From the NCBI GenBank assembly GCA_025060635.1, contig JANXBN010000001.1, positions 565,284-629,283 of the forward strand: a stretch of 64,000 nucleotides of DNA, read 5' to 3'. Shown in pieces: positions 13,975 through 56,608 of this stretch; within the stretch, counting starts at the first letter, position 1, and each line of letters opens with the position of its first letter. This stretch comes from Candidatus Kryptonium sp. (GTDB lineage: Bacteria > Bacteroidota > Ignavibacteria > Kryptoniales > Kryptoniaceae). The notes beneath the pieces were generated by a model. That model was not told where the DNA came from, did no database searches, and saw nothing but the letters and a program-made list of their open reading frames with translations. Position numbers and translations under genes: made by a program.

Positions 13975-15465
13975 TCAACTTCTGCGCCCATTAAACTTAT
14001 CAACTAATGCCTGAACCAAATTTCCTACGATTATTGTTGTTCCAGCGCCAATGAATGTATGCCAAGTCCAGGCTATTTTCGTGTTTAAAATTACATAAAC
14101 CATCATCAAAACTCCGGATATAAATGCAATCAATGCGCTGTTTTCGTTAACATTTTTAGATAAAACCCCGAGGAGAAATGTCCCAAGTAGTCCGCCATAT
14201 GTAAATGAAGCAATGCTTAAAGCAAGTTCAACTACTGTTCTTTCTGTCCTCATGAAAAACATCGCTGATCCAACAAGAAGAATTGCCCATATCGCAGTTA
14301 TTATTCTTGAAACAATTAATTCTTTCTTCTCATCTATATTTTTTCCGAAGTATGGTTTATAGATATCAATCATAGCCGATGAAGCAAGGGAACTCATTGA
14401 GCCAGCAAGAGTTGACATAGCAGCTGCAAAAAGTCCAGCTATTATCAAACCGGAGATTCCAGATGGCATATATTTCACGATGAAATCAGCGAAAACCTCA
14501 TTTGGATTCATATTTGCACCATTGTAAAAGGTATAAAGCATTAAACCGAGAAACAGAAACATGAAAAATTGAAGTGCAACGATGAAACCAGTTGTAATTA
14601 ACGCTTTTTGACTGTTCTTCAAAGAATCGGTTGTAAGAAGTCGCTGGACAATAAGTTGGTCAGCTCCGTGTGAAGCCATTGAAAGGAAGGCACCGCCAAT
14701 TAAACTTGCAAGCAATGTATATGGTTGGGAGAAGAAATCTTTTAAAGGTTTATCAAAACCCCAATTTATAATTTTGAATTTTTCCGCTGAAAAACTTAAC
14801 ACTTGTGAAATCCCACCATCAATTTTGCTTCCAAGCACTATGATCGCTGCAATAGCTCCACCTATGTAGATAAACATTTGAACGACATCCATCCATATAA
14901 CTGCTCTAACGCCACCAATAAATGTGTAAAGAAAGGTCACAAACGAAACGACGGCAATTGAGGTTATGTAAATTTGAGCATCTGACCAATTGACGAATTG
15001 TCCTGAATTTTTCAAAATTATCGCAAGAGGTATTGCAGTTGTAAAAAGGCGCACACCATCCGCAGCAAGTCGTGTTACCATGAAAACAATTGAGGCAAAA
15101 TTTCTTACTTTTCGTCCGAATCTTATTCCAAGGAACTGATACGCTGTTGCAAGTTCCCCACGATAGTAAGCTGGAAGGAAAATGAAACTTACAGCAATTC
15201 TTCCGAGAATATATCCAAACGCAAGCTGCAGGAAATTTAAGTTTGTTGCATATGCAACCCCTGGTATGCTTAAAAATGTCAACGCGCTCGTCTCTGTTGC
15301 AACGACAGCGAAGCAAACCGCAAGCCATGGAATTCGTCTCGCTCCAAGGAAATAATCCGCTGTGTTTTTTTGCTTTCCGCCAGAAATTATTCCAAAGATT
15401 AAAACCCCGAGAAGATAGGCAACAACGATTAACCAATCAATTAAACCGAAATTCATAAAGTTCAT
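13975..15465 (-). CDS. Sodium:solute symporter (SSS family)
   Basis: DYFLG, VATETSALTF, GGVRAVIWMD, DQLIVQRLL, AAAMSTL; many TM helices. Confidence 0.92.
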   Translation of the reverse strand: MNFMNFGLIDWLIVVAYLLGVLIFGIISGGKQKNTADYFLGARRIPWLAVCFAVVATETSALTFLSIPGVAYATNLNFLQLAFGYILGRIAVSFIFLPAYYRGELATAYQFLGIRFGRKVRNFASIVFMVTRLAADGVRLFTTAIPLAIILKNSGQFVNWSDAQIYITSIAVVSFVTFLYTFIGGVRAVIWMDVVQMFIYIGGAIAAIIVLGSKIDGGISQVLSFSAEKFKIINWGFDKPLKDFFSQPYTLLASLIGGAFLSMASHGADQLIVQRLLTTDSLKNSQKALITTGFIVALQFFMFLFLGLMLYTFYNGANMNPNEVFADFIVKYMPSGISGLIIAGLFAAAMSTLAGSMSSLASSAMIDIYKPYFGKNIDEKKELIVSRIITAIWAILLVGSAMFFMRTERTVVELALSIASFTYGGLLGTFLLGVLSKNVNENSALIAFISGVLMMVYVILNTKIAWTWHTFIGAGTTIIVGNLVQALVDKFNGRRS

Positions 15466-15809
15466 TTTTTTGTTTTTAAAGAAAGAGCATCTTCAACAGT
15501 AGGTAAGACTTGGAAAAGTGAATCAAGTTTCGTTATTTTTAACAAGTTCAAAATCCTATCGCCCACCCCAGTGAGAATTACAACTCCCTTGTTTTCGCGC
15601 ATCCTTCTTTCACAAAATAAAAGCGAGCTTAGACCAGAGCTATCGCAATATTCAACTTGAGATAAATCAATTATTAATTTCTTCATTCCACTTTGACATA
15701 AAGCCAAAAATTCTGCTTTCAATTCAGGCGCTATGATCGCATCAAGTTTTTTCTCGTTCAACTTGAAAACTAATGTATCTTTGACCGGCTTTAATAGTTC
15801 AAAGTTCAT
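15462..15809 (-). CDS. STAS-domain anti-sigma factor antagonist (RsbV/SpoIIAA-like)
   Basis: IDLSQVEYCDSSGLSSL with phosphorylatable Ser; LKITKLD. Confidence 0.9.
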   Translation of the reverse strand: MNFELLKPVKDTLVFKLNEKKLDAIIAPELKAEFLALCQSGMKKLIIDLSQVEYCDSSGLSSLLFCERRMRENKGVVILTGVGDRILNLLKITKLDSLFQVLPTVEDALSLKTKK

Positions 15810-21674: not shown

Positions 21675-21702
21675 TAAAGTAACTCGGGATTGAATCCGAT
21701 AA
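21675..21702 (+). promoter_or_regulatory. sigma-28 promoter for fliC
   Basis: TAAA(21675-21678)-N16-TCCGATAA(21695-21702). Confidence 0.8.
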
Positions 21703-21775: not shown

Positions 21776-22618
21776 ATGGCATTCTCACAGGGAACCCGCA
21801 TCAACACAAACATCGCAGCGATGAACGCCTACAACGCTCTCAACGATATCAATCGTGAATTGGGCGTTCATCAACTCCGTCTCGCAACGGGGAAGAAGAT
21901 CAACTCCGTCGCCGATGATCCCTCTGGTTACACGATTGCAAAAAAATTGCAAGCAAGAAGCCGTGGGCTTGCACAGGCAATAAACAATGTCGGCGACGCG
22001 AAAAATGTTCTTTCAATTGCTGAAGGCGGTTTGCAGAAAATTAATGACTTGCTTGTTTCAATTAAGGAGCAGGTAACAAGAGCTGTAAACGGTGGCTTGA
22101 GCGAAGATGAACTTCAGGCGATTGCTACACAAATCAATGATTACCTTGCTGAAGTTGATGATATCGTGAAACAAACAAAGTTCAACGGAATGCAATTGCT
22201 CAGAGGAGCTGGTGGTGGTGACTGGGTTGCAGGTAGAGATTTCCAAGTCGGAAGCGATAATGGCGACACTCTCACAGTTAAATTTGACATAACCGTTGAT
22301 AGCACACTTGTAAAATCAGGCGCTGTCGCCACATCTGACTTGGTGACCTCGTTTATCACCACAGTTGATAACGCAATAAAGACAGTTACACAGCAACTTC
22401 AATATGTTGGTTCTTTAATTAATCGTCTTGATGTTAAAGAGGCAAACTTGATAGTGTCAATGACCAACACTGATGCAGCTGCAAGCAGAATTTTTGACGC
22501 CGACATCGCTAAAGAGCAGGTTGAAGTTGCGAAACTTATGATACTCCAGCAAACAGCCACAGCTCAACTTGCTCAAGCAAACGCTGCTCCGCAAGGAGTG
22601 CTTGCATTGTTTAGATAA
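21776..22618 (+). CDS. fliC: Flagellin (short, 280 aa)
   Basis: RINTNIAAMNA, RLATGKKINSVADD, KFNG..LL, SRIFDAD.A.E, AQAN..PQ.VL.L. Confidence 0.96.
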   Translation: MAFSQGTRINTNIAAMNAYNALNDINRELGVHQLRLATGKKINSVADDPSGYTIAKKLQARSRGLAQAINNVGDAKNVLSIAEGGLQKINDLLVSIKEQVTRAVNGGLSEDELQAIATQINDYLAEVDDIVKQTKFNGMQLLRGAGGGDWVAGRDFQVGSDNGDTLTVKFDITVDSTLVKSGAVATSDLVTSFITTVDNAIKTVTQQLQYVGSLINRLDVKEANLIVSMTNTDAAASRIFDADIAKEQVEVAKLMILQQTATAQLAQANAAPQGVLALFR

Positions 22619-22652
22619 TCTTTGGAGACGCTGAACGATAGATAAATGAATC

Positions 22653-22679
22653 TGGGGGTTGCCTTCAGCGCAACCCCCA
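22653..22679 (+). terminator. 10-bp hairpin after fliC with weak U-tract (leaky terminator or mRNA stabiliser)
   Basis: TGGGGGTTGC-cttcagc-GCAACCCCCA followed by ttgcgttt. Confidence 0.65.
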
Positions 22680-22708
22680 TTGCGTTTAAAAATAGAAAAA
22701 GTTTAACA

Positions 22709-23008
22709 ATGCCAGAAAAAAATAGCTACATAGAAAACGAAATTCTCAACCTTTCACCAGTTGAACTGATCTTAAAAATCTATGATGTTGCGATCGTTAG
22801 CTGTAAAAGAAAAGACGCAGAGAGAGCAAACAAAGCTATTACTGAACTTATCGCTTCGTTGAACTTTGATTATAAAGAAATTTCTTTGAGTTTATTTAAA
22901 CTTTACCACTATTGCCAATACGAGATAAGGCAAGGTAATTTTGATAACGCTGTTAAGGTTTTAAAAGAACTTCGCGATGCGTGGGCGAAAGCTTTCAATT
23001 TAAAATAG
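22709..23008 (+). CDS. fliS: Flagellin chaperone FliS (start moved to ATG 22709)
   Basis: SPVELILKIYD, ITEL.ASLNF, LF.LYHY, ELRDAW; the track's upstream start lies within the hairpin region. Confidence 0.88.
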   Translation: MPEKNSYIENEILNLSPVELILKIYDVAIVSCKRKDAERANKAITELIASLNFDYKEISLSLFKLYHYCQYEIRQGNFDNAVKVLKELRDAWAKAFNLK

Positions 23009-23018
23009 GAGTTGCAAA

Positions 23019-24452
23019 ATGTCGTTTTATTTCAATACAAATAACAACATTAACCCTATAGATAACTTACTGCAAATATTCAAACGAGCCGAAAGCAATA
23101 AACTCATCAAGCCAGTTGAAACACAAAAAGATCTAACCCAAGCTAAAAACTCGGTATTTCTGGAACTAAAAACAAAATTAAATTCACTTCTTTCAATAGT
23201 TAAAGATCTGTCAACAAGAGGGGTAAATTCAAGATTTCAAGTTAAAACAGCTGAAGTCTCAGATCAAACTGTTTTATCAGTAAATGTTGAGCCGGTTGCG
23301 ACACCTGCAAACCATACGATTTTAATTCAACAACTTGCGAAAGAGGATTTAATTCTTTCCTCAAAATTTTCAAATGACGGAATGGAAATTTCAACAGCAG
23401 AGGGAACAGGAATAAAAACGATAAGAATCACGGTAAATGGGGTTTCAACTGATGTAAATATCACAATAGGAAACGAAGATACAAATAAAGTGATTTTAAA
23501 TAAAATTGCATCTGCAATAAATTCTGCTGATTTTGATGTTAAAGCAAGCGTTATATCTGATACTGCATCAACTTCGCGACTTGTTATAAAAAGCAAACAT
23601 ACGGGAAGTCAATACGCAATTTCTCTTGCTGATATTCAAGGAAACTTGCTTGCAAACATTGGGCTTGATTCAAATGTTATTAGCGGTCGCATCACTGCAG
23701 GCGATACAACAGGTGGATATCTTTACAATGATATCAATTCGCTTGATGCAAAACTTATCGTTGACGGTATAAATATAATTCGTGGATCAAATAAAATAAA
23801 CGATGTAATTCCTGGCGTCACAATTGAACTAAAGAAATCTCAAAATCCAAACGATAACCCAGTAACTGTCGCAATTAAAACTGGTACTGCCAGAATTAAA
23901 GAGACAATTGATTCGTTTGTGCAAATCTACAATGATTTGATAAAGTTCATAAATGATAAAACGAAAACCACATCGGATGGAACTCGTTCTATTTTAAGTG
24001 GTGATTATGTTCTATTAAAGTTGAAAGCAGACCTGCGGCTTATAGTAAGCAGTCCTGTTTCATCAGGAACTTTAAAATTTTTAAGTGATATCGGAATCAA
24101 GATTAATCCTGACGGAACGCTTAAGATTTCTGATAACTCAAAACTTGATAAGTTGATCTCTACAAATGTTTCACAGGTAGAGGAACTTTTTAACTCTTCA
24201 GACGGGATAGCGATTAAATTAAAGGAATTTATAAATCCTTTTGTCCAAATCGGTGGGGTAATTGAGCAAAGAATTAACTTTGGAAAGGAACAGATAAAAC
24301 GGTTTGACGAGAGGATAAAATCTTTGAACAAAATCATTGAACAAAGAGCCGAAGATTTGAGAAAGCAATTTGCCCAACTTCAATCTCTTTACACTGCTTT
24401 TGCAAGGCAACAAGCAATAGCTCAACAATTAATGCAGATGTTCCTGTCATGA
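23019..24452 (+). CDS. fliD: Flagellar filament cap protein
   Basis: I.QLA, S..TG, DAKLIVDG....R.SN.I.DVIPGVTIEL, FV..YNDL, L.DIGI, QFAQL. Confidence 0.92.
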   Translation: MSFYFNTNNNINPIDNLLQIFKRAESNKLIKPVETQKDLTQAKNSVFLELKTKLNSLLSIVKDLSTRGVNSRFQVKTAEVSDQTVLSVNVEPVATPANHTILIQQLAKEDLILSSKFSNDGMEISTAEGTGIKTIRITVNGVSTDVNITIGNEDTNKVILNKIASAINSADFDVKASVISDTASTSRLVIKSKHTGSQYAISLADIQGNLLANIGLDSNVISGRITAGDTTGGYLYNDINSLDAKLIVDGINIIRGSNKINDVIPGVTIELKKSQNPNDNPVTVAIKTGTARIKETIDSFVQIYNDLIKFINDKTKTTSDGTRSILSGDYVLLKLKADLRLIVSSPVSSGTLKFLSDIGIKINPDGTLKISDNSKLDKLISTNVSQVEELFNSSDGIAIKLKEFINPFVQIGGVIEQRINFGKEQIKRFDERIKSLNKIIEQRAEDLRKQFAQLQSLYTAFARQQAIAQQLMQMFLS

Positions 24453-24793
24453 TCCAAGAAGTAAAAAACATAGCGACAGTACAAACAATTCACCAAAACA
24501 AGCACGATCTGAACGATGCGAGAGTTATACAAAATGAAGATGAAGTTACGCAAAACGAGCGTAAAATCTCAATGGAGGAAGTAGAGAAAATAATAAAAGA
24601 ATTAAATCAGTTTATTCAAATTTTTAACACCAAGATCACTTTTGAAATTGACAAGGAAGCGAGGAAAACCGTTTTGAAGATCGTTGATGTGGAAACAAAC
24701 GAGATAATTCGCCAAATCCCACCAAAGGAACTTTTGATAATTTCAAAGCGAATTAGTGAATTACTTGGATTGATAATCAATGAGAAAGTATAA
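24449..24793 (+). CDS. flaG: FlaG family protein
   Basis: FEID......V.KIVD.ET.EIIRQIPP.E. Confidence 0.9.
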   Translation: MIQEVKNIATVQTIHQNKHDLNDARVIQNEDEVTQNERKISMEEVEKIIKELNQFIQIFNTKITFEIDKEARKTVLKIVDVETNEIIRQIPPKELLIISKRISELLGLIINEKV

Positions 24794-25145
24794 CTCAAAT
24801 ACAAAGTTAATTCAATTGATTTTTGATGAACTTCGCGAGACATTAAAGATTACGCTTTTGATTCGGGAGATGATCTCCAGAGGTGAATTCACGAAGTTAT
24901 CCGAACACCTATTGAAGCGAGAGCAAAAGCTTAAAGAAATGTTCAATCTCTTGGAAAACTTTGAAAAAGTGAAAAATGAAATCCCAGATTTCCAACAAAT
25001 CAAGTTTGAGGTTAAATCAATTCTTAATGAGATACTAAAGATTGATAGGGAAAGTGCCGATAATATAAAGGAGAAAATGAGAGAAATTTCGGAAGAGCTA
25101 TCAAAGTTGATTGAACGCAGAAAAATTTTAAATTATTTGAGGTAA
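24780..25145 (+). CDS. Probable flagellar chaperone (FliT/FlgN-like)
   Basis: Helical; LL.RE..L and IL.ID.E motifs; lies between flaG and flgM. Confidence 0.55.
   Translation: MRKYNSNTKLIQLIFDELRETLKITLLIREMISRGEFTKLSEHLLKREQKLKEMFNLLENFEKVKNEIPDFQQIKFEVKSILNEILKIDRESADNIKEKMREISEELSKLIERRKILNYLR
25036..25063 (+). promoter_or_regulatory. Internal sigma-28 promoter for flgM (inside the fliT-like gene)
   Basis: TAAA(25036-25039)-N16-GCCGATAA(25056-25063), exact consensus -10. Confidence 0.8.
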
Positions 25146-25147
25146 AA

Positions 25148-25396
25148 ATGAGGATAAATGAAATAAGCGGAAAAATACCGCTGCCTGAAGAGAACAGCGG
25201 GCGGAAAACGCAAAAAACGGAGGAGAAGAAAGATAAAATTGAGATTTCAAGTGAAGCAAGGGAAATCTATAGATTGAAAAGAGCGGAAAGAATTGAAGAA
25301 GTTAAAAAGAAGATTGAAACGGGCTTTTATAACTCTGATGATGTGATTGATAAAGTCGCAGAGAAAGTATACAGTCTATTTAAAATAGGCAAGTAG
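25148..25396 (+). CDS. flgM: Anti-sigma-28 factor FlgM
   Basis: DKIEISSEA, RAERIEEVKKKIETGFY...D..VAEK. Confidence 0.88.
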   Translation: MRINEISGKIPLPEENSGRKTQKTEEKKDKIEISSEAREIYRLKRAERIEEVKKKIETGFYNSDDVIDKVAEKVYSLFKIGK

Positions 25397-25446
25397 ATCC
25401 CGTGATCTATCAACCATAGCACCTCCCCCCGCCGTAGTTCAGTGGT

Positions 25447-25479
25447 AAAAAAACCCGAACTGTGTGTTCGGGTTTTTTT
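25447..25479. terminator. Bidirectional intrinsic terminator after flgM
   Basis: AAAAAAACCCGAAC-tgtgt-GTTCGGGTTTTTTT. Confidence 0.9.
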
Positions 25480-25556
25480 GTTTTGTTTGAAATTTTAAAT
25501 TATTCCATCTATATTTTTACTGGTTTAGCAAAACGCAACAAATTTTTGATCTTAAA

Positions 25557-26051
25557 TTGCGCGTATACCTTTCGGGCGGAATGGAATATGCAAATGAAAA
25601 GATCTTCGTATGGAGATTTGAAATTGAAAGATGGTTGAGGGAAAATTTAAATCATTTCGTTTTTAACCCCGTGATAGAGACGCAAAAGTTTCTTGAGGAG
25701 AACTATCCTGATATTTTAAACTTCAGAGAGTTAAAGGTGACCTCGCCAGAAAAGTTTACGGAAATAATTAGACGAATTGTTGAAAAAGATATTGAGGCGG
25801 TAAAACAATGCGATTATATCATCTGTTTTTGGGATGAGAGCGCTGAAAAGGGAGCTGGAACCCAAGGTGAAATTACGCTTGCAAAGTTTCTTAACAAGCC
25901 TGTTTTCCTTGTATCAAAATTTGAGTTTTCAAAAATTCCGTCATGGATCATAGGTTGTGTGGATAAAATTTTTTACGACTTTGAGCAATTGAAAGATTTC
26001 CTTTACAAAAAATTTAAACCTTCCAATGAGAGCAACGAGAGCGGAGATTGA
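25557..26051 (+). CDS. Nucleoside 2-deoxyribosyltransferase-like protein
   Basis: VYLSGGM, VFNP, D...V..CD.II, GT..EI..A..L.KPV. Confidence 0.7.
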   Translation: MRVYLSGGMEYANEKIFVWRFEIERWLRENLNHFVFNPVIETQKFLEENYPDILNFRELKVTSPEKFTEIIRRIVEKDIEAVKQCDYIICFWDESAEKGAGTQGEITLAKFLNKPVFLVSKFEFSKIPSWIIGCVDKIFYDFEQLKDFLYKKFKPSNESNESGD

Positions 26052-27135
26052 CCTTTCTGCTTTTGAGTTTAATTTTAAACAAGTAAGAAAACTGGTGGGT
26101 GGGGGCATTAAAATAATGGCCGTTGTGAAAGCAAATGCCTACGGTCATGGTGCAATTGAAATATCAAAATTAGCTATATCGCTTGGTGCTGATTACCTCG
26201 CTGTTGCAATTCCTGAGGAGGGAATTGAATTAAGAGAAAATGGAATTGATATACCAATTCTTGTTTTCACCCCAGCGTTTGAATATCAAATGGAACTTTT
26301 CTTTAAATATGACTTAACAGCGACAATAACTTCGCTTGAAAGCGCACAGAAATTTAATGTGCTCAGCGACAAATTTGGGAAAAAGGCAAAATGTCACATT
26401 AAGGTTGATACAGGGATGGGAAGAATTGGAATAGATTATAAAAACGCATACGAATTTGTTAAGAAGATTTATTACGACTTTAAAAATCTTTACATTGAAG
26501 GGATTTACACTCACTTTGCAACATCCGATGAAAGAGACAAATCCTTTGCATATCTTCAATTTGAAAGATTTATTAGCATCATAAGAGAGATCAATATGTC
26601 TGGGATTGATATACCACTAAAACATTGTGCAAATTCTGGGGCTATACTTGATATGCCGGAGACATATCTTGATATGGTTAGACCAGGGATCATGCTATAC
26701 GGTTATCATCCATCGCTTGAGGTCAAAAACAGGATTGAACTAAAACCAGTTATGACATTAAAATCAAAAGTCGCATTTGTTAAAGAGGTTGAGCCTGGGA
26801 CAAGCATTAGCTACGGACGAAGGTTCATAGCGAAAGAAAAAACTAAAATAGCAACGATACCTATCGGATATGCAGATGGCTTTAGACGCTCACTTACAAA
26901 TCTTGGGAAAGTTGAAATAAATGGCGTAATTTTCCCAGTCGTTGGAACCGTAACAATGGATCAGATCATGGTTGATGTGGGCTTAAGCACAGATATAAAA
27001 GTTGGGGATGATGTAATTTTATTCGGTAATGGAAATATAACAGCGTGGGATGTAGCGAGTTTGCTTGGGACAATACCTTATGAAATCTGTTGCGGTATTT
27101 CTTCAAGGGTTCCAAGAATTTATGTGAGAAATTAA
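26026..27135 (+). CDS. alr: Alanine racemase
   Basis: AVVKANAYGHG PLP site, HIKVDTGMGR, RPGIMLYG, GYADG. Confidence 0.97.
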   Translation: MRATRAEIDLSAFEFNFKQVRKLVGGGIKIMAVVKANAYGHGAIEISKLAISLGADYLAVAIPEEGIELRENGIDIPILVFTPAFEYQMELFFKYDLTATITSLESAQKFNVLSDKFGKKAKCHIKVDTGMGRIGIDYKNAYEFVKKIYYDFKNLYIEGIYTHFATSDERDKSFAYLQFERFISIIREINMSGIDIPLKHCANSGAILDMPETYLDMVRPGIMLYGYHPSLEVKNRIELKPVMTLKSKVAFVKEVEPGTSISYGRRFIAKEKTKIATIPIGYADGFRRSLTNLGKVEINGVIFPVVGTVTMDQIMVDVGLSTDIKVGDDVILFGNGNITAWDVASLLGTIPYEICCGISSRVPRIYVRN

Positions 27136-27154
27136 AAACAAAAAGGGTTAAATC

Positions 27155-28246
27155 ATGTCAAAAGCATTTGCGGTGATAATGGCAGGTGGCGTCGGCTCAA
27201 GATTCTGGCCCAAAAGTAGATCAAGAAAACCGAAACAATTTTTAAACATTCTATCTTCAAAATCTTTAATTGAGCAGACAATAGAACGAATAAATCCACT
27301 TATCCCAGAGGAGGACATACTTATTGTTTCAAACAAAAATCAAACAGCCGAACTTGTTCAGGTGTTACCAAAATTTCCAATTCAAAACATAATCCTTGAA
27401 CCGCTTTCCAAAAACACAGCACCTTGCATAGGGCTCGCAGCTTTGTTTATAAGAAGACGTCAACCTGATGCAGTGATGGTCGTTCTACCATCAGATCATC
27501 TCATAAAAAATGAGGAAAAGTTTCTCAACACATTAAAAATAGGGATTGAAACAGCGTATAAAACAAATGGTTTAATAACGATAGGAATTCAACCATCATA
27601 CCCATCAACTGGCTATGGTTATATTCAATTCATTGAGGATGATGAGAGCGAACTTTCAGAAAAGGGAGTTTATAAAGTAAAAACATTCGCTGAAAAGCCT
27701 GATTTAGAAACAGCTAAAAAATTTATAGAAAGCGGAGATTTTCTTTGGAACAGCGGTATGTTCATATGGAGAGTTGATGTGATACTTGACGAAATTCAAA
27801 CACATTTGCCAGATATATATGAAGAATTAATGACAATTGACAAAACAATTGGAACTGATGAATTCAAAACTGTCCTTGAACAAGCGTATGGAAGAATGAA
27901 ATCAATCTCCATTGATTATGGAGTTATGGAGAAGACAAACAGAGCCTATGTGATAAAAGCAAATTTTGAATGGAGCGATGTTGGAAGTTGGGAAGAAGTT
28001 TATAACCTTGCACCAAAAGATAAAGATGGAAATTATATCTCTTCAAATCCAGAAAATGTAGTTTTAATTGATGTCAAAAATTCACTAATTGAAGGGAACA
28101 AAACCTTAATTGCAATGATTGGGGTTGAAGATTTAATAGTTGTCAGCAGCGAGGATGCAATTTTGATTTGTAAGCGTGATAGAGCGCAAGATGTAAGAAA
28201 CATAGTCAATTACCTTAAACGAAAAAATATGGAAAAGTATCTATGA
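27155..28246 (+). CDS. manC: Mannose-1-phosphate guanylyltransferase (no PMI domain)
   Basis: [48 protein letters not shown]. Confidence 0.93.
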
Positions 28247-28653
28247 GGATCTTGAAAACTTCAATCTTCATTTTGATATTTGCCTTTAACTCCTGCACGA
28301 GCGCTGTCCGTTATTCAACTCAAGAAACATTCAGAATCTCTGAAAAAGTTCAAATCGGTGTTGCTTCATATTATGGATTAGAATTTCACGGTAGACCAAC
28401 GACAAGTGGTGAGATATACGATATGAATTCCCTTACAGCAGCTCATCCAACTTTGCCACTTGGGACAATTGTTAAAGTCACGAACCTTGCCAACGATAAA
28501 AGTGTCATCGTTAGAATAAACGATAGAGGACCTTTTAAAAAGAATAGAATTATTGATGTTTCGTATGAAGCAGCTAAACAACTTGGTTTTTTAAATGACG
28601 GAACAGCACTTGTGAAGATTGAAGTCATAAAACTTCCCGAAGATGAAAAATAA
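28243..28653 (+). CDS. rlpA: Septal ring lytic transglycosylase RlpA (lipoprotein)
   Basis: Lipobox FNSC; [30 protein letters not shown]. Confidence 0.92.
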
Positions 28654-28661
28654 AATCGGAT

Positions 28662-29615
28662 TTGATCGTGAAAAATAGAAAAAGAATAAAGCCACCAGCA
28701 TTGAAAAAGGGGGATGTAATTGGAATCGTCTCCCCTGCAAGCTCCCCAGATGATTTTTCAAGAATTGACAAAGGAGTTGCTTACCTTGAAAGTTTGGGAT
28801 ATAGGGTTAAGCTAGGTAAACATATCTACAGACGAAATGGGTATCTTTCTGCGAATGATGATGAAAGAGCTGAGGATTTAAATGAAATGTTTTCGGATCC
28901 GCAAGTCCGTGCGATAATTTGTGTAAGAGGTGGATATGGCACGCCGAGAATTCTTGATAAAATCAATTACAGCGCGATCCGAAAAAATCCAAAGATTTTC
29001 GTTGGCTATAGCGATATAACTGCGCTTCAACTTGCGATTTTCAAAAAAACTGGGCTGATAACTTTCTCAGGTCCGATGCTTGCGGTTGATATTTATTCCG
29101 ATTTTGATCCATATGCTGAGGAATTTTTTTGGAGAATTTTGACTTCAAAATCGGACAAAATTCAAATAAAAAATCCTGACGATAAAGACATCAGCGTTTT
29201 AAGTCATGGAAAATCAACGGGAATCCTGCTTGGAGGAAACTTATCTCTATTGGCTTCGGTAATTGGAACTAAATTTCAACCGGATTTCAGTAATTCGGTC
29301 CTTGTAGTTGAGGACATTGGGGAAGAGCCGTATAGAATTGATAGATATTTCTCTCAACTGAAAAACTCGGGAGTACTTAGCAAAATTAAGGCTTGTGTTC
29401 TCGGACAGTTTACAGATTGCGCCCCTAAGGAGCCAGAGAAAAGTTTGACCCTTGAACAAATTTTTCAAGATTATTTAGGCAATCTTAAGATTCCTGTTAT
29501 AGCAAATTTAAGTTACGGGCATATCCCAAAGAAAATCACTCTCCCGATTGGAGCCAAGATAAGAATTGATACAAAGAGAAAAATGATAGCAATAGTTGAA
29601 AGCGTTGTGTCTTAA
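28662..29615 (+). CDS. ldcA: LD-carboxypeptidase (S66 family)
   Basis: RGGYG, GYSDIT nucleophile, GGNL, LEDI-like VEDIGE, YGH. Confidence 0.92.
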   Translation: MIVKNRKRIKPPALKKGDVIGIVSPASSPDDFSRIDKGVAYLESLGYRVKLGKHIYRRNGYLSANDDERAEDLNEMFSDPQVRAIICVRGGYGTPRILDKINYSAIRKNPKIFVGYSDITALQLAIFKKTGLITFSGPMLAVDIYSDFDPYAEEFFWRILTSKSDKIQIKNPDDKDISVLSHGKSTGILLGGNLSLLASVIGTKFQPDFSNSVLVVEDIGEEPYRIDRYFSQLKNSGVLSKIKACVLGQFTDCAPKEPEKSLTLEQIFQDYLGNLKIPVIANLSYGHIPKKITLPIGAKIRIDTKRKMIAIVESVVS

Positions 29616-31434
29616 AATAGTGATCTTCATGATTTTAACCTCAACTTTGTCATCGCAAAATCTGCTTCAGTTCAAGTTTAATCGCGAATTTTCAAACTTT
29701 TATTGGAATGGTCTTTTAAATTTTCACACATCAAGAGGTTCTTTTGACATTTATATTTACGAGAAGTTTTCAGAAATGATAATAAAAACGGACAGAAAAT
29801 TTGTTCGTGACGATAACGATTTCAAGTTTAGATTTCATAAAAGCATTTCCTCTCGTTTTAAGATATCGCTTCTTTTAAACTCTGTTTCATTTGTTGATGA
29901 TAAACTTGTGGGATTCAGCAGGGCATCTTCAACTGATCTATTATCTGGTATTAAGGTGATGCCATTTTCAAATTTCGGTTTTTCTTTTTTAAGTGGATAT
30001 AAACTTGATTATCAAATGAAACAAAAAGACGATGGCTGGGTTTACAGGATTTCTTCTGATACGACGGATTTATTGATCTCTGATTATCATCTAAAGACAA
30101 ATATAGAGCACCAGGAGGATTTTATTAAGCCAAGAAAAAACATAACTTCATCGCTCAATCTAACCGTATGGCGAAAATTTACCGCTGATGTTGAAAGCAA
30201 AGCGGAAATTTTTATCAAGCGCGTTAAGCGTGACTTTTATTTCTATGCTGATTCAAATATACAAAAAACTTACGGTGTTAATTTAAACATTGAGGGAAGA
30301 GATGAGAGGGCAATAACAGGAGTTTTGCTTTTGGACTATCCATTGATCAATAACTTAACTTTAAATTTAAACTTTGCTTTAAACAGACGAAACATAGCGA
30401 AGATGGTGCGTTATAAAACGCCTTCGCTTTATGATTCAGATATTGAAGAATTTACACTTAACATGAGCACGGGTTTATCATATTCAACGGAAAAATTTAA
30501 AACAAAATTTGAAATAGGATACTCCGAGCGAAACGAAATTCACAAACCTAAAAAACATGAGTTAACAACCGAGAGCATGTTTTTGAGGATAAAACAAAGC
30601 GAAGAGCAGAAAAACAATAAAAGTTTGCGGAGGATTGTAAATGGTGAAATTTCTTTTGATCCTTTGGATTGGTTAACAGTAGGCGGGATGTTTTATGTTT
30701 CGCTTTTTAGATACGACACACCAAGTGCTTTAAATGATGATGATAGAGATGAGCTCTTACAGATTTTCCGCGTTTTTCTGAAATTAGATATCTCAAGAGA
30801 AATTCGGATGGAGATACCGCTTGACCTAAATGGACAACATCTTGTTTATATCTTTGCAACAAGAAGCGTGAATAACAATTGGAACAGAATAATTAAACTT
30901 TCCCCTTCAATTATTTTTGAAAACGAGCGCTTGAGGAACAGAGCAAGTTTTTCAGTCCTTGCGAATTACACAGTTTATGATTTTGAGACGATCACACCTA
31001 TGGTGAAAAGTTATGTTTTCAGACAATTTTATTTTAATGATTCAATTTCCTTTCCAGTGTTTAGTAGGTTGAGTTTTAGCGGAAATTTGCAAGTGATACT
31101 TTCAGAAAGCGGGAGATTGAAATGGAGAGAATTTAAAACAAAACCAGTAATTTTTATAAGCAACAGCGAATATAGTTTTAAATTAAACTACTCCTTGAAT
31201 AAAAGTGCAAGATTTTCGGTAGGTTATCGTTTCTTTAACGAGAGAAGATATAGATTCGTTGAACTTAACAGAGTTCCTGATACGAGGATAATTGCGTCAG
31301 GTCCTATATCAGAAATTGAGATAGCAAATGAAAAATTTAAATTAAACTTTGACGGTTGGATGGAGCGTTTGAGGTTGGGTGGCAAGGTAAGTGAAGTGCC
31401 AATTTTGAATTTAAATTTGACAATAAACTTATGA
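29596..31434 (+). CDS. Large uncharacterised outer-membrane beta-barrel protein
   Basis: Signal peptide; extensive amphipathic beta strands; ends LNLTINL. Confidence 0.6.
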   Translation: MKALCLKIVIFMILTSTLSSQNLLQFKFNREFSNFYWNGLLNFHTSRGSFDIYIYEKFSEMIIKTDRKFVRDDNDFKFRFHKSISSRFKISLLLNSVSFVDDKLVGFSRASSTDLLSGIKVMPFSNFGFSFLSGYKLDYQMKQKDDGWVYRISSDTTDLLISDYHLKTNIEHQEDFIKPRKNITSSLNLTVWRKFTADVESKAEIFIKRVKRDFYFYADSNIQKTYGVNLNIEGRDERAITGVLLLDYPLINNLTLNLNFALNRRNIAKMVRYKTPSLYDSDIEEFTLNMSTGLSYSTEKFKTKFEIGYSERNEIHKPKKHELTTESMFLRIKQSEEQKNNKSLRRIVNGEISFDPLDWLTVGGMFYVSLFRYDTPSALNDDDRDELLQIFRVFLKLDISREIRMEIPLDLNGQHLVYIFATRSVNNNWNRIIKLSPSIIFENERLRNRASFSVLANYTVYDFETITPMVKSYVFRQFYFNDSISFPVFSRLSFSGNLQVILSESGRLKWREFKTKPVIFISNSEYSFKLNYSLNKSARFSVGYRFFNERRYRFVELNRVPDTRIIASGPISEIEIANEKFKLNFDGWMERLRLGGKVSEVPILNLNLTINL

Positions 31435-31865
31435 AGAAATTTCGTTTCAAGTCCGATATCGCAAGCTTCCCATCCAATATTTCATCTTTGAAAAAGTTTG
31501 AAAAATTTCTTGAGAGATTGAAGAAAAAACATAAAATTTCTGATGAAGATTTTTATAGAATTTCTCTCGCTTCAAGTGAGGCTTTTATAAATGCAATTGT
31601 CCACGGTAATAAGCTTGATTCTTCCAAAAAGGTAACCGTTAAGTTCAGAGCTTTTAAAAAAAGTTTTGAAATTGAAATTCAAGATGAGGGCGAGGGATTT
31701 AAAACTACCATTTTTTTAGATCCAACATCAGCGGAGAATTTGCTTAAAGAGTCCGGCCGTGGAATTTATATCATGAAATCTTTTTCTGATGCTGTAAAAT
31801 TTTACAAAACTAAAAAGGGTTTCAAAGTAAAAATAAAAATAAAAAAGCGATCGGGCGTCCCTTGA
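31431..31865 (+). CDS. rsbW: Anti-sigma factor / Ser kinase (RsbW/SpoIIAB-like)
   Basis: SEAFINAIVHGN, IQDEGEGF, ESGRGIYIM. Confidence 0.85.
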   Translation: MKKFRFKSDIASFPSNISSLKKFEKFLERLKKKHKISDEDFYRISLASSEAFINAIVHGNKLDSSKKVTVKFRAFKKSFEIEIQDEGEGFKTTIFLDPTSAENLLKESGRGIYIMKSFSDAVKFYKTKKGFKVKIKIKKRSGVP

Positions 31866-31882
31866 GGGATCGCCCAATCGCC
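31841..31882 (-). terminator. Strong intrinsic terminator (16-bp stem, one bulge, U6)
   Basis: GGCGATTGGGCG-A-TCCC-TCAA-GGGA-CGCCCGATCGC-TTTTTT on the minus strand. Confidence 0.85.
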
Positions 31883-31971
31883 AACGGAGGTGCTACGGCG
31901 GGGTATCAATCTAAAGAACGACATTTCATAAAAGTGCTTGTCAAAGTGCTTATTCAGGTGCATCTCTCAAT
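31841..31971 (-). ncRNA. Candidate sigma-54-dependent small RNA (~130 nt)
   Basis: Promoter and terminator bracket a region with no plausible ORF; four GCACYT repeats; C-rich segment just before the terminator. Confidence 0.6.
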
Positions 31972-31981
31972 TAAAAACTTA

Positions 31982-31998
31982 TGCAAATACTATGCCAA
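31982..31998 (-). promoter_or_regulatory. sigma-54 (-24/-12) promoter
   Basis: Minus strand TTGGCATAGTATTTGCA = GG-N10-GC, matching TGGCAC-N5-TTGCA. Confidence 0.75.
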
Positions 31999-32096
31999 AT
32001 CAAATTTGCCGTGTTTGTTAAAATTTCAATAAATTTTTAGCGAATTTTTATAAGTTAAAAGTCATAATTTTGGACAAAAAGTGACAAATTTGACCA

Positions 32097-33734
32097 ATGA
32101 TCACAAACTATCATACTTTAAAAAACCTGGTTAAGGAAATAAAGTCAAGAATTGAAGGCACAACCATAAATGAATCCTTTACTCAAGAAAAAGATACACT
32201 TCACATAAATCTTGAGGGGGAGAATGCTTTTACACTTGAATTAAATGCGACGGGGCAAGGGTATATGTTTTTGCGTCCGAAGCTAGAAAGGGCAAGAAAA
32301 AATTCGCTTGATATCTTTCCGGAAATCCAAGGGGATAAAATAGTTAAAATTGAAATTCATAAAGCGGATAGAATTATTGAAGTCCTTCTTTCATCAAAGC
32401 ATAAACTTCTTTTCCAGTTTTTCACTGGCAAAGTTAATTTCTTTCTTACAACGATTGAAAACGAGATCATAGCTTCATTTAAAAATCCGAAGGAAAACAT
32501 CGGGAGAAAATTTGAATTTGAAAAGGTTGAAACAAACTATGATGTAATGATAAATAATTTTGAGGTATTTAAAAGTTTTTGGGAGAGTTCAAATGTTGAC
32601 GAGCCGATATCACGACTTATTAAAATTGTTGATACTATTGATATGTTAATTGCTCGGGAAGTTGTTCACAGATCCGGTGATGCAAATGTTGAAAAAATTT
32701 GGCTTTGTTTGAAAGAAATTGATAAAGAGCTTAACAATCCAAAGCCACGAATTTATTACGATGGTGTTTTCCCGAGACATTTCTCAATTATTGAACTTAC
32801 ACATCTGAACTTTAAGAAAGTTGAGTTTGCCGAAATAAATGAGGCTATAAGAAGATTTGTAATTGAGACGAGAATAAACAGGGATTTCTACAACGAGAAA
32901 AAATCAATTTTGGAAAAACTTAAACACTTGCTTGATAAAACTATTAGAACCATTGAGAAAGTTGAAAAGGAAATCAACGAAAATCAAAGAGCTCGGATGT
33001 ATGAGATTTACGGCTCAATTTTGATGGCTAATTTAAATGCATTACACAAAGGTATGAGTGAAGTTGAACTTTTGAATGTGTTTTCGGAAAAAAATGAAAA
33101 AGTAAGGATTAAACTTGATCCATCGCTTTCACCTGTTGAAAATGCCGAGAGATATTTTGAAAAGGCAAAGAAAACAAAGGCATCATTGAAAATTGCGGAG
33201 GAGCGATTGGAAAGATTGAAAGTTAACAAGGAGAAACTAAACAGTTTGATTCAGAAAGTTGATAAGTGTGAAAATCATAATGATTTGAAAAAATTTAAGG
33301 ATGAAAACTTTCAAGATTTGAAAGCATTTGGAATCATAAAAGACAAGGTTGCTGAAAAAATCGGAAGCAAATTTAGAAGATTTGTCGTTGATGGCGGGTT
33401 TGAGGTTTGGGTTGGGAAAGATGCTAAAAGTAATGATTTGCTAACTTTGAAATTTTCTGATAAAGAAGATTTATGGTTTCACGCTCGTGGTGTTCGTGGG
33501 GCACATGTGGTCTTGAAAACGGGAAGAAGACAACCTAGTAAAAAGGCAATTGAACAGGCTGGGGGTATCGCAGCATATTTTAGCGAAGCGAAGACATCCT
33601 CGCTTGTCCCTGTTATCGTGACAAAGCGAAAATATGTGAGAAAGCCGAGAGGAGCACCTGAGGGAAGTGTGATAGTTGAGCGTGAGGAAGTCATAATGGT
33701 TGAACCAAAATTACCATCGGAAGAAATTGAATGA
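32097..33734 (+). CDS. rqcH: Ribosome quality control protein RqcH (NFACT/FbpA)
   Basis: I.LDP.LSP.ENAERYF.KAKK, WVGKDAKSND.LT, WFHARGVRGAHV, RKYVRKP. Confidence 0.88.
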   Translation: MITNYHTLKNLVKEIKSRIEGTTINESFTQEKDTLHINLEGENAFTLELNATGQGYMFLRPKLERARKNSLDIFPEIQGDKIVKIEIHKADRIIEVLLSSKHKLLFQFFTGKVNFFLTTIENEIIASFKNPKENIGRKFEFEKVETNYDVMINNFEVFKSFWESSNVDEPISRLIKIVDTIDMLIAREVVHRSGDANVEKIWLCLKEIDKELNNPKPRIYYDGVFPRHFSIIELTHLNFKKVEFAEINEAIRRFVIETRINRDFYNEKKSILEKLKHLLDKTIRTIEKVEKEINENQRARMYEIYGSILMANLNALHKGMSEVELLNVFSEKNEKVRIKLDPSLSPVENAERYFEKAKKTKASLKIAEERLERLKVNKEKLNSLIQKVDKCENHNDLKKFKDENFQDLKAFGIIKDKVAEKIGSKFRRFVVDGGFEVWVGKDAKSNDLLTLKFSDKEDLWFHARGVRGAHVVLKTGRRQPSKKAIEQAGGIAAYFSEAKTSSLVPVIVTKRKYVRKPRGAPEGSVIVEREEVIMVEPKLPSEEIE

Positions 33735-51576: not shown

Positions 51577-51716
51577 CTTTTTAAGAGCACCTCCCACTCG
51601 TAATTTGTTTTTAAAAGAAAAAAGAATCCATTACTAAATTTTAAAAAATTGCCCCGCCGTAATGTTAATAGGGTTTAAGATGATTAATTCAAAAATGTAA
51701 CTCTTCTTTTTCGCCC

Positions 51717-54258: not shown

Positions 54259-54274
54259 TGGCACAGGGTTTGAA
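54259..54274 (+). promoter_or_regulatory. Probable sigma-54 promoter for the flhF operon (variant -12)
   Basis: TGGCAC-AGGGT-TTGAA; perfect -24 element, GA instead of GC at -12. Confidence 0.55.
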
Positions 54275-56372: not shown

Positions 56373-56578
56373 TTCTACAAATTGGACTTCTTTTGTTTTT
56401 CGTTTCAATAATAACTCTCTGGTTGCAAGGGATAGATATAATAATTGCTGTTGCGAGATCGTTCGTTCTATTTGTCGCTGTAACTGGGCTCTTGTCTTTA
56501 GTTATGTATTTATTTGTCTTTCTGAAAAAGAGCGAGAAAAAAGAAGAAATTTCAACTCAAGAAGCATCAAAGAATTAA
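56360..56578 (+). CDS. Small two-TM membrane protein between flhG and fliA (start ATG 56360)
   Basis: MRALILQIGLLLFFVSII...; two hydrophobic helices and a charged tail; fills the operon gap. Confidence 0.6.
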   Translation: MRALILQIGLLLFFVSIITLWLQGIDIIIAVARSFVLFVAVTGLLSLVMYLFVFLKKSEKKEEISTQEASKN

Positions 56579-56608
56579 GAGCTTTAAAACTTTTACGGAG
56601 GGCTTAAT

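What the first reader, a model, noticed from the sequence alone, without database searches (positions are those of the whole stretch)
25397..25479. flgM 3' UTR looks like a 3'-derived sRNA
Seen: right at the flgM stop there is a small hairpin (TAGATC-ccgt-GATCTA), then a C-rich stretch AGCACCTCCCCCCGCCGTAG sharing both boxes with the 31.9-kb RNA, then a perfect terminator. A sigma-28 promoter at 25036-25063 would transcribe it. Established: 3' UTR-derived sRNAs from sigma-28 genes are known (FliX from fliC). Inference: a second, sigma-28-tier RNA with the same seed.
Basis: partly seen in the sequence, partly recalled or inferred. Interest (0 to 1): 0.7.

Follow-up and report, generated by a model that had tools for sequence, protein, structure and literature searches.

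The report
Conserved C-rich box in flgM 3' UTR
The short untranslated tail of the flagellar anti-sigma-factor gene flgM in this uncultured hot-spring bacterium carries a conserved C-rich box that mimics the ribosome's anti-Shine-Dalgarno sequence, so it is a plausible but unproven small-RNA-like regulator of a kind already known from other flagellar genes.

Summary
The window comes from a member of the candidate phylum Kryptonia.

**What comparison of nine distinct flgM loci shows**
- **Conserved in all:** the sigma-28 promoter, the terminator and the core box GCACC[T/C]CC. The box is predicted to be mostly unpaired.
- **Not conserved:** the hairpin at the stop codon. The second box (CCCGCCGTAG) is present in only 3 of 9 loci and absent from the closest relative.

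**The "31.9-kb RNA"**
- It is a real, strongly conserved RNA of about 130 nt on the minus strand.
- It has a sigma-54-type promoter, 3-5 GCACYU repeats, an invariant 25-nt core (CCCGCCGTAGCACCTCCGTTGGCGA) and a covarying terminator.
- It matches no Rfam family.

**Candidate shared target**
- The leader of an UpxY/RfaH-like antiterminator gene next to wzc is the best candidate.
- Its ribosome-binding site GGAGGTGCT and an upstream ACGGCGGG are complementary to the two boxes. ACGGCGGG is conserved in four species and the ribosome-binding site in three.

No RNA-seq run could be found. Whether a separate 3' fragment exists, or the box acts within the whole flgM mRNA, in cis, or not at all, therefore stays open.

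Verdict: observation confirmed and interpretation partly supported. If real, it is a new member of a known kind, of moderate interest.

The parts
25036..25063 (+). Sigma-28 (FliA)-type promoter TAAAGATTGA-N10-GCCGATAA. It lies inside the fliT-like ORF, 84 nt upstream of the flgM ATG.
   Evidence: It is the only zero-mismatch match in the window. It is conserved in all ten Kryptonia flgM loci examined, one of them with ACCGATAA. A FliA gene is present in the window.
25148..25396 (+). flgM, the anti-sigma-28 factor (82 aa).
   Evidence: It matches Pfam FlgM at 28.7 bits, cutoff 25. A homologue is named FlgM by NCBI. It lies after fliD-flaG.
25394..25409 (+). Hairpin over the stop codon, TAGATC-ccgt-GATCTA.
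   Evidence: It is present in the window. It is not conserved in any relative and is broken in L033, so it is probably incidental.
25418..25426 (+). Box A, AGCACCTCC, with conserved core GCACC[T/C]CC. It matches the anti-Shine-Dalgarno sequence CACCUCC.
   Evidence: The core is present in 9 of 9 distinct flgM 3' UTRs. Its mean unpaired probability is 0.6-0.98 in the isolated UTRs. It is identical to the invariant core of the sigma-54 RNA.
25427..25437 (+). C-run plus box B (CCCGCCGTAG, 25428-25437).
   Evidence: It matches 31893-31902 (-) exactly. It is conserved only in the window, L030 and L031. In L030 and L031 it forms the 3' arm of a hairpin that puts ACCUCCCC in the loop.
25444..25482 (+). 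Intrinsic terminator of flgM, with an A-run before the stem and a T-run after it.
   Evidence: It was found by the terminator scan. A terminator is present at this position in all orthologues, with different stem sequences. Logan contigs from four metagenomes break here.
31841..31971 (-). The "31.9-kb RNA": a predicted sRNA of about 130 nt. It has four GCAC[C/T]T repeats in the window, the core CCCCGCCGTAGCACCTCC at 31886-31903, and a terminator hairpin at 31847-31881 followed by a T-run.
   Evidence: It is conserved between the rsbW-like kinase gene and the NFACT gene in seven loci. A 25-nt core is invariant. Four terminator pairs show compensatory changes. It has no Rfam match. The 5' end is inferred from the promoter, not measured.
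31983..31997 (-). Sigma-54-type promoter, TGGCAT-agtat-TTGC (-24/-12 elements).
   Evidence: It matches the consensus with one mismatch. TGGCAC-N5-TTG[C/A/T] is conserved at the same place in L005, L006, L043, L044, L045 and L046.
51577..51662 (-). Candidate target: the leader of the UpxY/RfaH-like NusG paralogue (CDS 51049-51576, minus strand). The ribosome-binding site GGGAGGTGCT (51586-51595) is complementary to box A. TTACGGCGGGG (51652-51662) is complementary to box B.
   Evidence: Matches were found. It is the only AGGTGC placed as a ribosome-binding site before an ORF of 60 aa or more in the window. ACGGCGGG is conserved in all four species compared and GGAGGTGCT in three of them. UpxY scores 95.5 bits against a cutoff of 100. 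Duplex z-scores are modest.

Best explanation
The 86-nt flgM 3' UTR is a conserved regulatory RNA module. It is transcribed with flgM from a sigma-28 promoter and ends at an intrinsic terminator. It exposes a single-stranded, C-rich box (GCACCYCC) that has the sequence of the ribosome's anti-Shine-Dalgarno site.

**Proposed mechanism (inferred, not shown).** The box base-pairs in trans with unusually strong, G-rich ribosome-binding sites and blocks translation initiation. Most genes inspected in this genome have little or no Shine-Dalgarno sequence, so such a box would be selective. The best candidate target is the UpxY/RfaH-like antiterminator gene downstream of wzc. Its ribosome-binding site GGAGGUGCU is a 9-10-nt complement of the box. 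In some lineages its upstream ACGGCGGG also pairs with box B.

The module could act as part of the roughly 410-nt flgM mRNA or as a processed fragment of about 60-85 nt. The sequence cannot tell which.

The same box is the invariant core of a separate sRNA with a sigma-54-type promoter at 31.9 kb. Two sigma-factor tiers may therefore deliver the same seed.
For: - **Core box.** It is conserved in 9 of 9 flgM 3' UTRs, while the flanking UTR sequence and FlgM itself (67-92% identity) diverge.
- **Accessibility.** The box is predicted to be unpaired in the isolated UTRs.
- **Transcription signals.** The sigma-28 promoter and the terminator are conserved, and the window encodes FliA.
- **Rarity.** C-runs are rare in the window. 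GCACCTCC occurs in 188 kb of Kryptonia DNA almost only in the flgM UTRs, in the sigma-54 RNA and, as its complement, at the UpxY-like ribosome-binding site.
- **Shared core.** The box is identical to the invariant core of an independently conserved sRNA.
- **Candidate target.** The leader carries complements of both boxes within 80 nt, conserved across four species. This includes a 12-nt perfect match in Chrysopegis: UTR CCCGCCGTAGAG against leader CTCTACGGCGGG. It is the only AGGTGC ribosome-binding site in the window.
- **Duplex energies.** The UTR-leader duplex beats shuffled leaders in the window (3 of 300 reach it), Chrysopegis (6 of 300) and the S1 bin (6 of 300).
- **Precedents.** FliX and FlgO (PMC10578931), CJnc230 and CJnc170 (PMC11187230), and the C-rich seeds of RsaE and RoxS (PMC6158497, PMC8216469).
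Against: - No expression data exist: no RNA run was found. Neither a stable 3' fragment nor even the transcript ends are shown.
- Box B is absent in 6 of 9 lineages, including the closest relative.
- In K. thompsonii the UTR box is GCACCCCCC. Its predicted pairing with the UpxY-like leader is no better than chance (97 of 300 shuffles reach it).
- The sigma-54 RNA does not co-vary with the UTR.
- The in-window similarity is only p about 0.01.
- ACGGCGGG in the leader could lie upstream of that gene's own promoter and be a DNA site instead.
- No RNA chaperone or RNase is known for this phylum.
Confidence: 0.4

Rival explanations
1. The box is a cis-acting element of the flgM mRNA. It pairs with flgM's own ribosome-binding site (GAGGU or GAGGUG), or with another G-rich stretch of the same transcript, to limit translation or set mRNA stability. 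This is how the 3' UTR UCCCC motif of S. aureus icaR works.
For: In folds of the full sigma-28 transcript, the box pairs with flgM's own ribosome-binding site in the minimum-energy structure in 3 of 9 orthologues: L036, L037 and L031, which have GAGGUG. icaR provides a precedent (PMC3868564). Translational control of flgM is well known in Salmonella (my own knowledge).
Against: Complementarity is only 5-6 bp, against 9-10 bp for the UpxY-like ribosome-binding site. In the other six orthologues the box pairs elsewhere or stays open. In the Kryptonium lineage the box changed to GCACCCCCC while the flgM ribosome-binding site stayed GAGGU, which weakens the pairing rather than compensating for it.
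Confidence: 0.2
2. The box is a binding site for an RNA-binding protein. The sigma-54 RNA, with 3-5 GCACCU repeats spaced 12-14 nt apart, would titrate that protein in the way CsrB/RsmZ or CrcZ do, and flgM mRNA would be one of the protein's targets.
For: The sigma-54 RNA carries a regular array of 3-5 copies of RGCAC[C/U]U separated by A/U-rich spacers. This architecture is typical of protein-sponging RNAs. The flgM UTR carries one copy of the same motif.
Against: No candidate protein is known. The motif equals the anti-Shine-Dalgarno sequence and has conserved complements in a leader, which RNA-RNA pairing explains directly. A single site next to a terminator in a 3' UTR is an unusual place for translational control by a protein.
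Confidence: 0.12
3. There is no regulatory role. The UTR is an ordinary terminator-containing tail, and the C-rich box is kept for a local reason such as termination efficiency or mRNA 3'-end stability. Its resemblance to the 31.9-kb RNA is coincidental, or reflects both sequences drifting towards an anti-Shine-Dalgarno-like form.
For: The in-window similarity is only p about 0.01 after a post-hoc search. Box B and the hairpin are not conserved. In L036 and L037 the box lies 3-4 nt from the terminator stem. No transcript data exist.
Against: An 8-nt core is kept in nine lineages within otherwise unalignable A/T-rich sequence. Other terminators in the window have no such box. The distance from the box to the terminator varies from 3 to about 25 nt, which argues against a fixed role in termination.
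Confidence: 0.2

Closest known systems
FliX (fliC 3' UTR) and FlgO (flgL 3' UTR), sigma-28-dependent 3' UTR-derived sRNAs of E. coli (PMC10578931)
   Same: It lies in the 3' UTR of a late flagellar gene, is driven by a sigma-28 promoter, and shares the parent mRNA's terminator.
   Different: There is no sequence relationship. FliX and FlgO are Hfq-bound, processed species seen on Northern blots, whereas nothing is measured here. FliX pairs inside coding sequences rather than at ribosome-binding sites. The parent gene here is flgM, in a different phylum (Kryptonia).
CJnc230/FlmE (RpoN-dependent, processed from the flgE mRNA) and CJnc170/FlmR (FliA-dependent) of Campylobacter jejuni (PMC11187230)
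   Same: A pair of RNAs, one in the sigma-54 tier and one in the sigma-28 tier, is linked to the flagellar hierarchy, and one of them derives from the 3' end of a flagellar mRNA.
   Different: In C. jejuni the two sRNAs have different sequences and opposing effects, and flgM is a target. Here the two RNAs share a box, flgM is the host gene, and the predicted target is an UpxY/RfaH-like antiterminator. A link between the sigma-54 RNA and flagella is only hinted at by a sigma-54-like site upstream of flhF.
C-rich, anti-Shine-Dalgarno-like seeds of Firmicute sRNAs (RsaE/RoxS, PMC6158497, PMC8216469; the UCCC motif of S. aureus sRNAs, my own knowledge)
   Same: Unpaired C-rich motifs, often in several copies, pair with G-rich ribosome-binding sites. 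The sigma-54 RNA has 3-5 copies and the flgM UTR has one.
   Different: There is no homology: Rfam gives no match. The motif here is GCACCU(CC), not UCCC. The phylum differs, and no experimental target is known.
icaR 3' UTR UCCCC motif pairing with its own Shine-Dalgarno sequence (PMC3868564)
   Same: A C-rich anti-SD-like motif sits in a bacterial 3' UTR.
   Different: icaR acts in cis on its own ribosome-binding site through a long 3' UTR. Here self-complementarity is only 5-6 bp and appears in 3 of 9 predicted folds.

Membership tests
3' UTR-derived sRNA (processed type, e.g. FliX, FlgO, CpxQ, CJnc230) | It lies in the 3' UTR and shares the parent mRNA's intrinsic terminator. | tested here: met
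   The terminator at 25444-25482 follows the flgM stop codon by 48 nt. A terminator is present at the same position in all orthologues.
3' UTR-derived sRNA (processed type, e.g. FliX, FlgO, CpxQ, CJnc230) | A discrete, stable short RNA accumulates separately from the mRNA. | not testable with these tools
   Three queries found no RNA run. Only metagenome contigs are available.
3' UTR-derived sRNA (processed type, e.g. FliX, FlgO, CpxQ, CJnc230) | It has a defined 5' end, made by endonucleolytic processing or by an internal promoter. | not testable with these tools
   The only sites inside flgM are weak sigma-70-like matches, 9 of 12, at 25314-25342 and 25347-25375. Their conservation was not examined. 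No 5'-end data exist.
3' UTR-derived sRNA (processed type, e.g. FliX, FlgO, CpxQ, CJnc230) | It has a conserved, accessible seed. | tested here: met
   GCACC[T/C]CC is present in 9 of 9 orthologues, with mean unpaired probability 0.6-0.98.
3' UTR-derived sRNA (processed type, e.g. FliX, FlgO, CpxQ, CJnc230) | It has a trans target with conserved complementarity. | tested here: inconclusive
   The UpxY-like leader carries complements of both boxes; ACGGCGGG is conserved in all four species compared and the ribosome-binding-site complement GGAGGTGCT in three. Duplex energies are only modestly better than shuffles, and not better in K. thompsonii.
Sigma-28 (FliA) regulon | A TAAA-N15-GCCGATAA promoter lies upstream. 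| tested here: met
   The match at 25036-25063 has zero mismatches. It is conserved in ten loci. fliC has a similar site at 21675-21702. The fliA gene lies at 56609-57385.
Sigma-28 (FliA) regulon | Transcription depends on FliA. | not testable with these tools
   The organism is uncultured and no expression data exist.
Same RNA family as the 31.9-kb sigma-54 sRNA | The two are alignable as homologues beyond a short motif. | tested here: not met
   Only CC[A/G]TAGCACCTCC (13 nt) is shared, plus the displaced box B. The terminators, the repeats and the promoter type all differ.
Same RNA family as the 31.9-kb sigma-54 sRNA | The two share a seed that co-varies across species. | tested here: not met
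   The sRNA core is invariant in six aligned species. The flgM UTR varies: GCACCCCCC in Kryptonium, and box B lost in 6 of 9.
RsaE/RoxS family | It matches the Rfam covariance model. | tested here: not met
   No such match appears even at E up to 10.
icaR-type 5'/3' UTR self-pairing | The 3' UTR motif is complementary to the mRNA's own ribosome-binding site, and the pairing is conserved. | tested here: inconclusive
   Complementarity is 5-6 bp. The pairing is in the minimum-energy fold in 3 of 9 orthologues. There is no compensating change in the Kryptonium lineage.

The most novel reading that the evidence does not exclude
flgM mRNA is bifunctional: it encodes the anti-sigma factor and also acts as a riboregulator. 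Together with an sRNA carrying a sigma-54-type promoter, it forms a two-tier RNA circuit that uses one anti-Shine-Dalgarno-like box to silence an UpxY/RfaH-type antiterminator beside the wzc polysaccharide gene. This would be an RNA-level switch between motility and capsule or exopolysaccharide in an uncultured FCB phylum where most genes inspected lack strong ribosome-binding sites.
Probability: 0.15. Interest if true: 0.65.

Novelty: new member of a known kind. Interest (0 to 1): 0.45.

Why it matters
If the box works as proposed, it would extend RNA control of the flagellar hierarchy by 3' UTRs from Proteobacteria and Campylobacterota to a candidate phylum of the FCB group. It would make flgM the host of a regulator rather than only a target. 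It would also link late flagellar gene expression to an UpxY/RfaH-type antiterminator of a polysaccharide locus.

The comparison also turned up a well-conserved sRNA family with a sigma-54-type promoter that has not been described before. It comes with a concrete predicted target that can be tested in a heterologous reporter without culturing the organism.

Tried and rejected
- **Known RNA families.** The Rfam gathering scan of the window and the permissive scans of both loci gave only sub-threshold hits driven by the terminator.
- **tRNA remnant.** GCCGTAGTTCAGTGGTA (25431-25447) resembles a tRNA D-arm, but ARAGORN and the tRNA model call nothing there. The resemblance is confined to the window and L033.
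- **Small ORF on the minus strand.** GGAGGTGCTATG reads as a ribosome-binding site plus a start codon. I rejected this. An ATG follows in only four of nine lineages, the peptides are short and unrelated, the two-way terminator blocks entry from downstream, and the neighbouring gene is on the + strand (reading).
- **Stop-codon hairpin as a functional element.** It is not conserved.
- **Plus-strand reading of the 31.9-kb locus.** This would be a 3' UTR of the rsbW-like gene, complementary to the flgM UTR. I rejected it as the primary reading because the T-run and the conserved sigma-54 promoter are on the minus strand. Read-through plus-strand RNA would still be complementary to both RNAs; this was not tested.
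- **C-rich box as a general feature of terminators.** Other terminators lack it.
- **RNA-seq evidence.** Three searches found no RNA run.
- **Metagenome scan with a FlgM alignment.** It returned mainly distant loci, about 47% identical to FlgM (I take them to be Ignavibacteria-like, not checked), that lack the motif.
- **Genome scan with the kinase alignment.** It added no new species.
- **Co-variation between the flgM UTR and the sRNA within one species (K. thompsonii).** None was found.

Full report
**Context.** The window comes from a member of the candidate phylum Kryptonia. These are uncultured hot-spring bacteria of the FCB group, with about 35% G+C. FliD, FlgM, the RsbW-like kinase and the NFACT protein find their closest relatives in Ca. 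Kryptonium, Ca. Chrysopegis and Ca. Thermokryptus assemblies. The only sequencing runs that hold the stretch are hot-spring metagenomes.

The finding lies at the end of a late flagellar operon:
- fliC, 21776-22618
- fliS, 22646-23008
- fliD, 23019-24452
- flaG, 24449-24793
- a weak FliT-like ORF, 24780-25145
- flgM, 25148-25396

The window also encodes FlhF, a MinD/FlhG-like ATPase and a FliA/WhiG sigma-28 factor at 54322-57385.

**Checking the observation.**
- the palindromic hairpin over the stop codon (25394-25409)
- AGCACCTCC (25418-25426) and CCCGCCGTAG (25428-25437)
- a strong terminator at 25444-25482
- a perfect TAAAG-N15-GCCGATAA site at 25036-25063, the only zero-mismatch match in the window

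Both boxes recur exactly at 31886-31902, but on the minus strand and in the opposite order.

Taken alone, this similarity is only modestly unlikely. A single shared 11-mer is expected by chance: 822 of 3000 shuffles reach it. The clustering of both words at one locus is reached by 23 of 2000 dinucleotide shuffles.

**Comparative evidence for the flgM 3' UTR.** I recovered nine distinct orthologous flgM 3' UTRs, with FlgM 67-92% identical to the window's.

| Feature | Result across orthologues |
|---|---|
| Sigma-28 promoter | TAAAGATTGA-N10-[G/A]CCGATAA, 84-86 nt before the ATG, in all loci examined. Conserved even at synonymous positions of the ORF it lies in. |
| Terminator | Present at the same place in all, with different stem sequences. 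|
| Core box | GCACC[T/C]CC, 15-27 nt after the stop codon, in all nine. Embedded in otherwise poorly alignable A/T-rich sequence. |
| Accessibility of the box | Mean unpaired probability 0.6-0.98 in the isolated UTRs. |
| Stop-codon hairpin | Already broken in the closest relative, L033. |
| Box B | Present only in the window, L030 and L031. L033 has CCAACCATAG. The Kryptonium lineage has GCACCCCCCACTAT. |

In L030 and L031, box B is the 3' arm of a hairpin (CAUGGC / GCCGUG) that places ACCUCCCC in the loop. Box B may therefore be partly structural.

Runs of C are rare in this genome: five in 64 kb, the others being a tRNA end, a terminator stem and three sites I did not classify. Other terminators do not carry such a box.

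**The 31.9-kb RNA.** The partner locus is a minus-strand gene between an RsbW-like HATPase_c_2 kinase (31431-31865) and an NFACT gene (32097-33734). The same arrangement holds in seven loci, with the kinase down to 59% identity. Each locus shows the following features:
- a TGGCAC-N5-TTG[C/A/T] element, which is the sigma-54 -24/-12 consensus
- 3-5 copies of RGCAC[C/U]U spaced 12-14 nt apart
- an invariant 25-nt block, CCCGCCGTAGCACCTCCGTTGGCGA
- a hairpin followed by a T-run

RNAalifold finds four terminator pairs with compensatory changes. It also finds a small invariant hairpin that puts ACCUCC in a loop. No Rfam family matches.

This is a well-supported new sRNA of about 130 nt. Its ends are inferred, not measured. 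It is not homologous to the flgM UTR beyond CC[A/G]TAGCACCTCC. Its core does not co-vary with the UTR: K. thompsonii keeps GCACCTCC in the sRNA but has GCACCCCCC after flgM.

**What the box might do.** CACCUCC is the sequence of the 3' end of 16S rRNA, by general knowledge; no rRNA gene is in the window. The box is therefore complementary to a strong Shine-Dalgarno sequence, GGAGGUG.

Among 13 start regions inspected, most have no such sequence. Only one AGGTGC in the window sits as a ribosome-binding site before an ORF of 60 aa or more. That ORF is a NusG paralogue at 51049-51576 (-). Its best match is the UpxY antiterminator family at 95.5 bits, just under the cutoff of 100, followed by RfaH. 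It lies directly downstream of a Wzc-like gene.

The leader of this gene reads GGGAGGUGCU, a 10-nt complement of the UTR box. About 60 nt upstream it carries UUACGGCGGGG, which is complementary to box B. The state in four species is as follows:

| Species | Upstream element | Ribosome-binding site |
|---|---|---|
| Window | UUACGGCGGGG | GGGAGGUGCU |
| K. thompsonii | ACGGCGGG conserved | GGAGGTGCT |
| Metagenome bin "S1" | ACGGCGGG conserved | GGAGGTGCT |
| Chrysopegis | CTCTACGGCGGG, a perfect 12-nt complement of its own flgM UTR (CCCGCCGTAGAG) | GAGGTGAT |

Duplex energies against shuffled leaders give moderate support:

| Pairing | Shuffles reaching the observed energy (of 300) |
|---|---|
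| UTR-leader, window | 3 |
| UTR-leader, Chrysopegis | 6 |
| UTR-leader, S1 bin | 6 |
| UTR-leader, K. thompsonii | 97 |
| sRNA core-leader, four species | 5 to 38 |

The leader also contains other conserved blocks that look like a promoter downstream of ACGGCGGG. That element may therefore not be in the monocistronic mRNA.

**Rival explanations.**
- **Cis pairing of the box with flgM's own ribosome-binding site, as in icaR (PMC3868564).** It appears in the minimum-energy fold of the full transcript in only 3 of 9 orthologues, and spans just 5-6 bp. It is not excluded.
- **A protein-binding reading.** The regular repeat array of the sigma-54 RNA suggests it, but no protein is known. Conserved complementary sites favour RNA-RNA pairing.
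- **A null reading, with the box kept for local, non-regulatory reasons.** It cannot be dismissed without transcript data. It fits poorly with the variable distance between box and terminator, and with nine-fold conservation in unalignable sequence.

**Comparison with known systems.**
- The nearest known systems are the E. coli sigma-28-dependent 3' UTR sRNAs FliX and FlgO (PMC10578931).
- A second close parallel is the C. jejuni pair CJnc230/FlmE (RpoN-dependent, from the flgE 3' end) and CJnc170/FlmR (FliA-dependent) (PMC11187230).
- In mechanism the box resembles the C-rich anti-SD-like seeds of RsaE and RoxS (PMC6158497, PMC8216469).
- There is no sequence homology to any of these.

The defining experimental features of a 3' UTR-derived sRNA are a discrete stable species and a defined 5' end. 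Neither could be tested, because no RNA run holding these organisms was found. Logan contigs from four metagenomes show no variants in 25397-25451 and break at the terminator hairpin.

**Verdict.**
- There is a conserved, sigma-28-transcribed 3' UTR with an accessible anti-SD-like box.
- That box is shared with a conserved sRNA carrying a sigma-54-type promoter, and there is a plausible common target.
- "Both boxes" and the hairpin do not generalise across lineages.
- Whether a separate sRNA is produced is unknown.

If real, it is a new member of a known kind. I rate interest as moderate (0.45).

Noticed in passing
window 31841-31997 (-); L005, L006, L043-L046: A predicted sRNA of about 130 nt with a conserved sigma-54-type promoter (TGGCAC-N5-TTGC), 3-5 GCACCU repeats, an invariant 25-nt core and a covarying terminator. 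It always lies between an rsbW-like kinase gene and an NFACT gene, its terminator overlaps the last codons of the kinase ORF, and it has no Rfam match.
   Followed up: yes
window 51577-51716 (-); L047-L049: The leader of an UpxY/RfaH-like NusG paralogue downstream of a wzc-like gene carries ACGGCGGG, conserved in all four species compared, and the ribosome-binding site GGAGGTGCT, conserved in three of them. Both are complementary to the sRNA core. Other conserved blocks (TGGA...TTTAAAAATAAA) may be its promoter.
   Followed up: partly
window 54259-54273 (+): A sigma-54-like site, TGGCACAGGGTTTGA, lies 48 nt upstream of the flhF ATG, ahead of flhF, flhG-like and fliA (54322-57385). This hints at a cascade from sigma-54 to fliA to sigma-28. 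Its conservation was not checked.
   Followed up: no
window 25431-25447 (+): GCCGTAGTTCAGTGGTA resembles the D-arm of a tRNA. L033 has TAGTTCAACGGTA at the same place. Neither ARAGORN nor Rfam calls a tRNA there.
   Followed up: partly
window 25487-25515 (+): A sigma-70-like promoter, TTGAAA-17-TATATT, lies just after the flgM terminator. The surrounding block GAAAATTTAAATTGTTCCATCTATATTTTTAC is conserved in L028, L029, L032 and L033, so the downstream gene appears to be transcribed separately.
   Followed up: partly
window 25451-25466: Logan contigs from four hot-spring metagenomes all break inside the terminator hairpin. They carry a variant stem (CCCCGAAC rather than CCCGAAC), which points to strain-level variation or an assembly break at the inverted repeat.
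   Followed up: no
window 22646-22679 (+): A G+C-rich hairpin (TGGGGGTTGC...GCAACCCCCA, 22653-22679) lies inside the first codons of the predicted fliS ORF, just after fliC. The Pfam FliS match starts only at residue 54, so the fliS start may be mis-called and the hairpin may end or attenuate the fliC transcript.
   Followed up: no
L021-L027 (distant flgM loci, about 47% FlgM identity; probably Ignavibacteria-like, not checked): In these loci a hairpin overlaps the flgM stop codon. It is followed by a GCCGAT(A)-like box resembling a sigma-28 -10 element and by a C/U-rich stretch (CCCGCCTC, TTCCTTCCTC). This is a different architecture from Kryptonia.
   Followed up: no
window, 13 start regions (21776-32097): Most genes inspected have no recognisable Shine-Dalgarno sequence. 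Strong ones are confined to a few genes: fliC AAGGAGGT, fliD AGGAG, flgM GAGGT and the UpxY-like gene GGGAGGTGCT.
   Followed up: partly
window 15462-15809 (-) and 31431-31865 (+): A STAS-domain protein (anti-anti-sigma type) and an RsbW-like HATPase_c_2 kinase are encoded 16 kb apart. These may be pieces of a partner-switching module, and the kinase's 3' end is overlapped in antisense by the sigma-54 sRNA.
   Followed up: no
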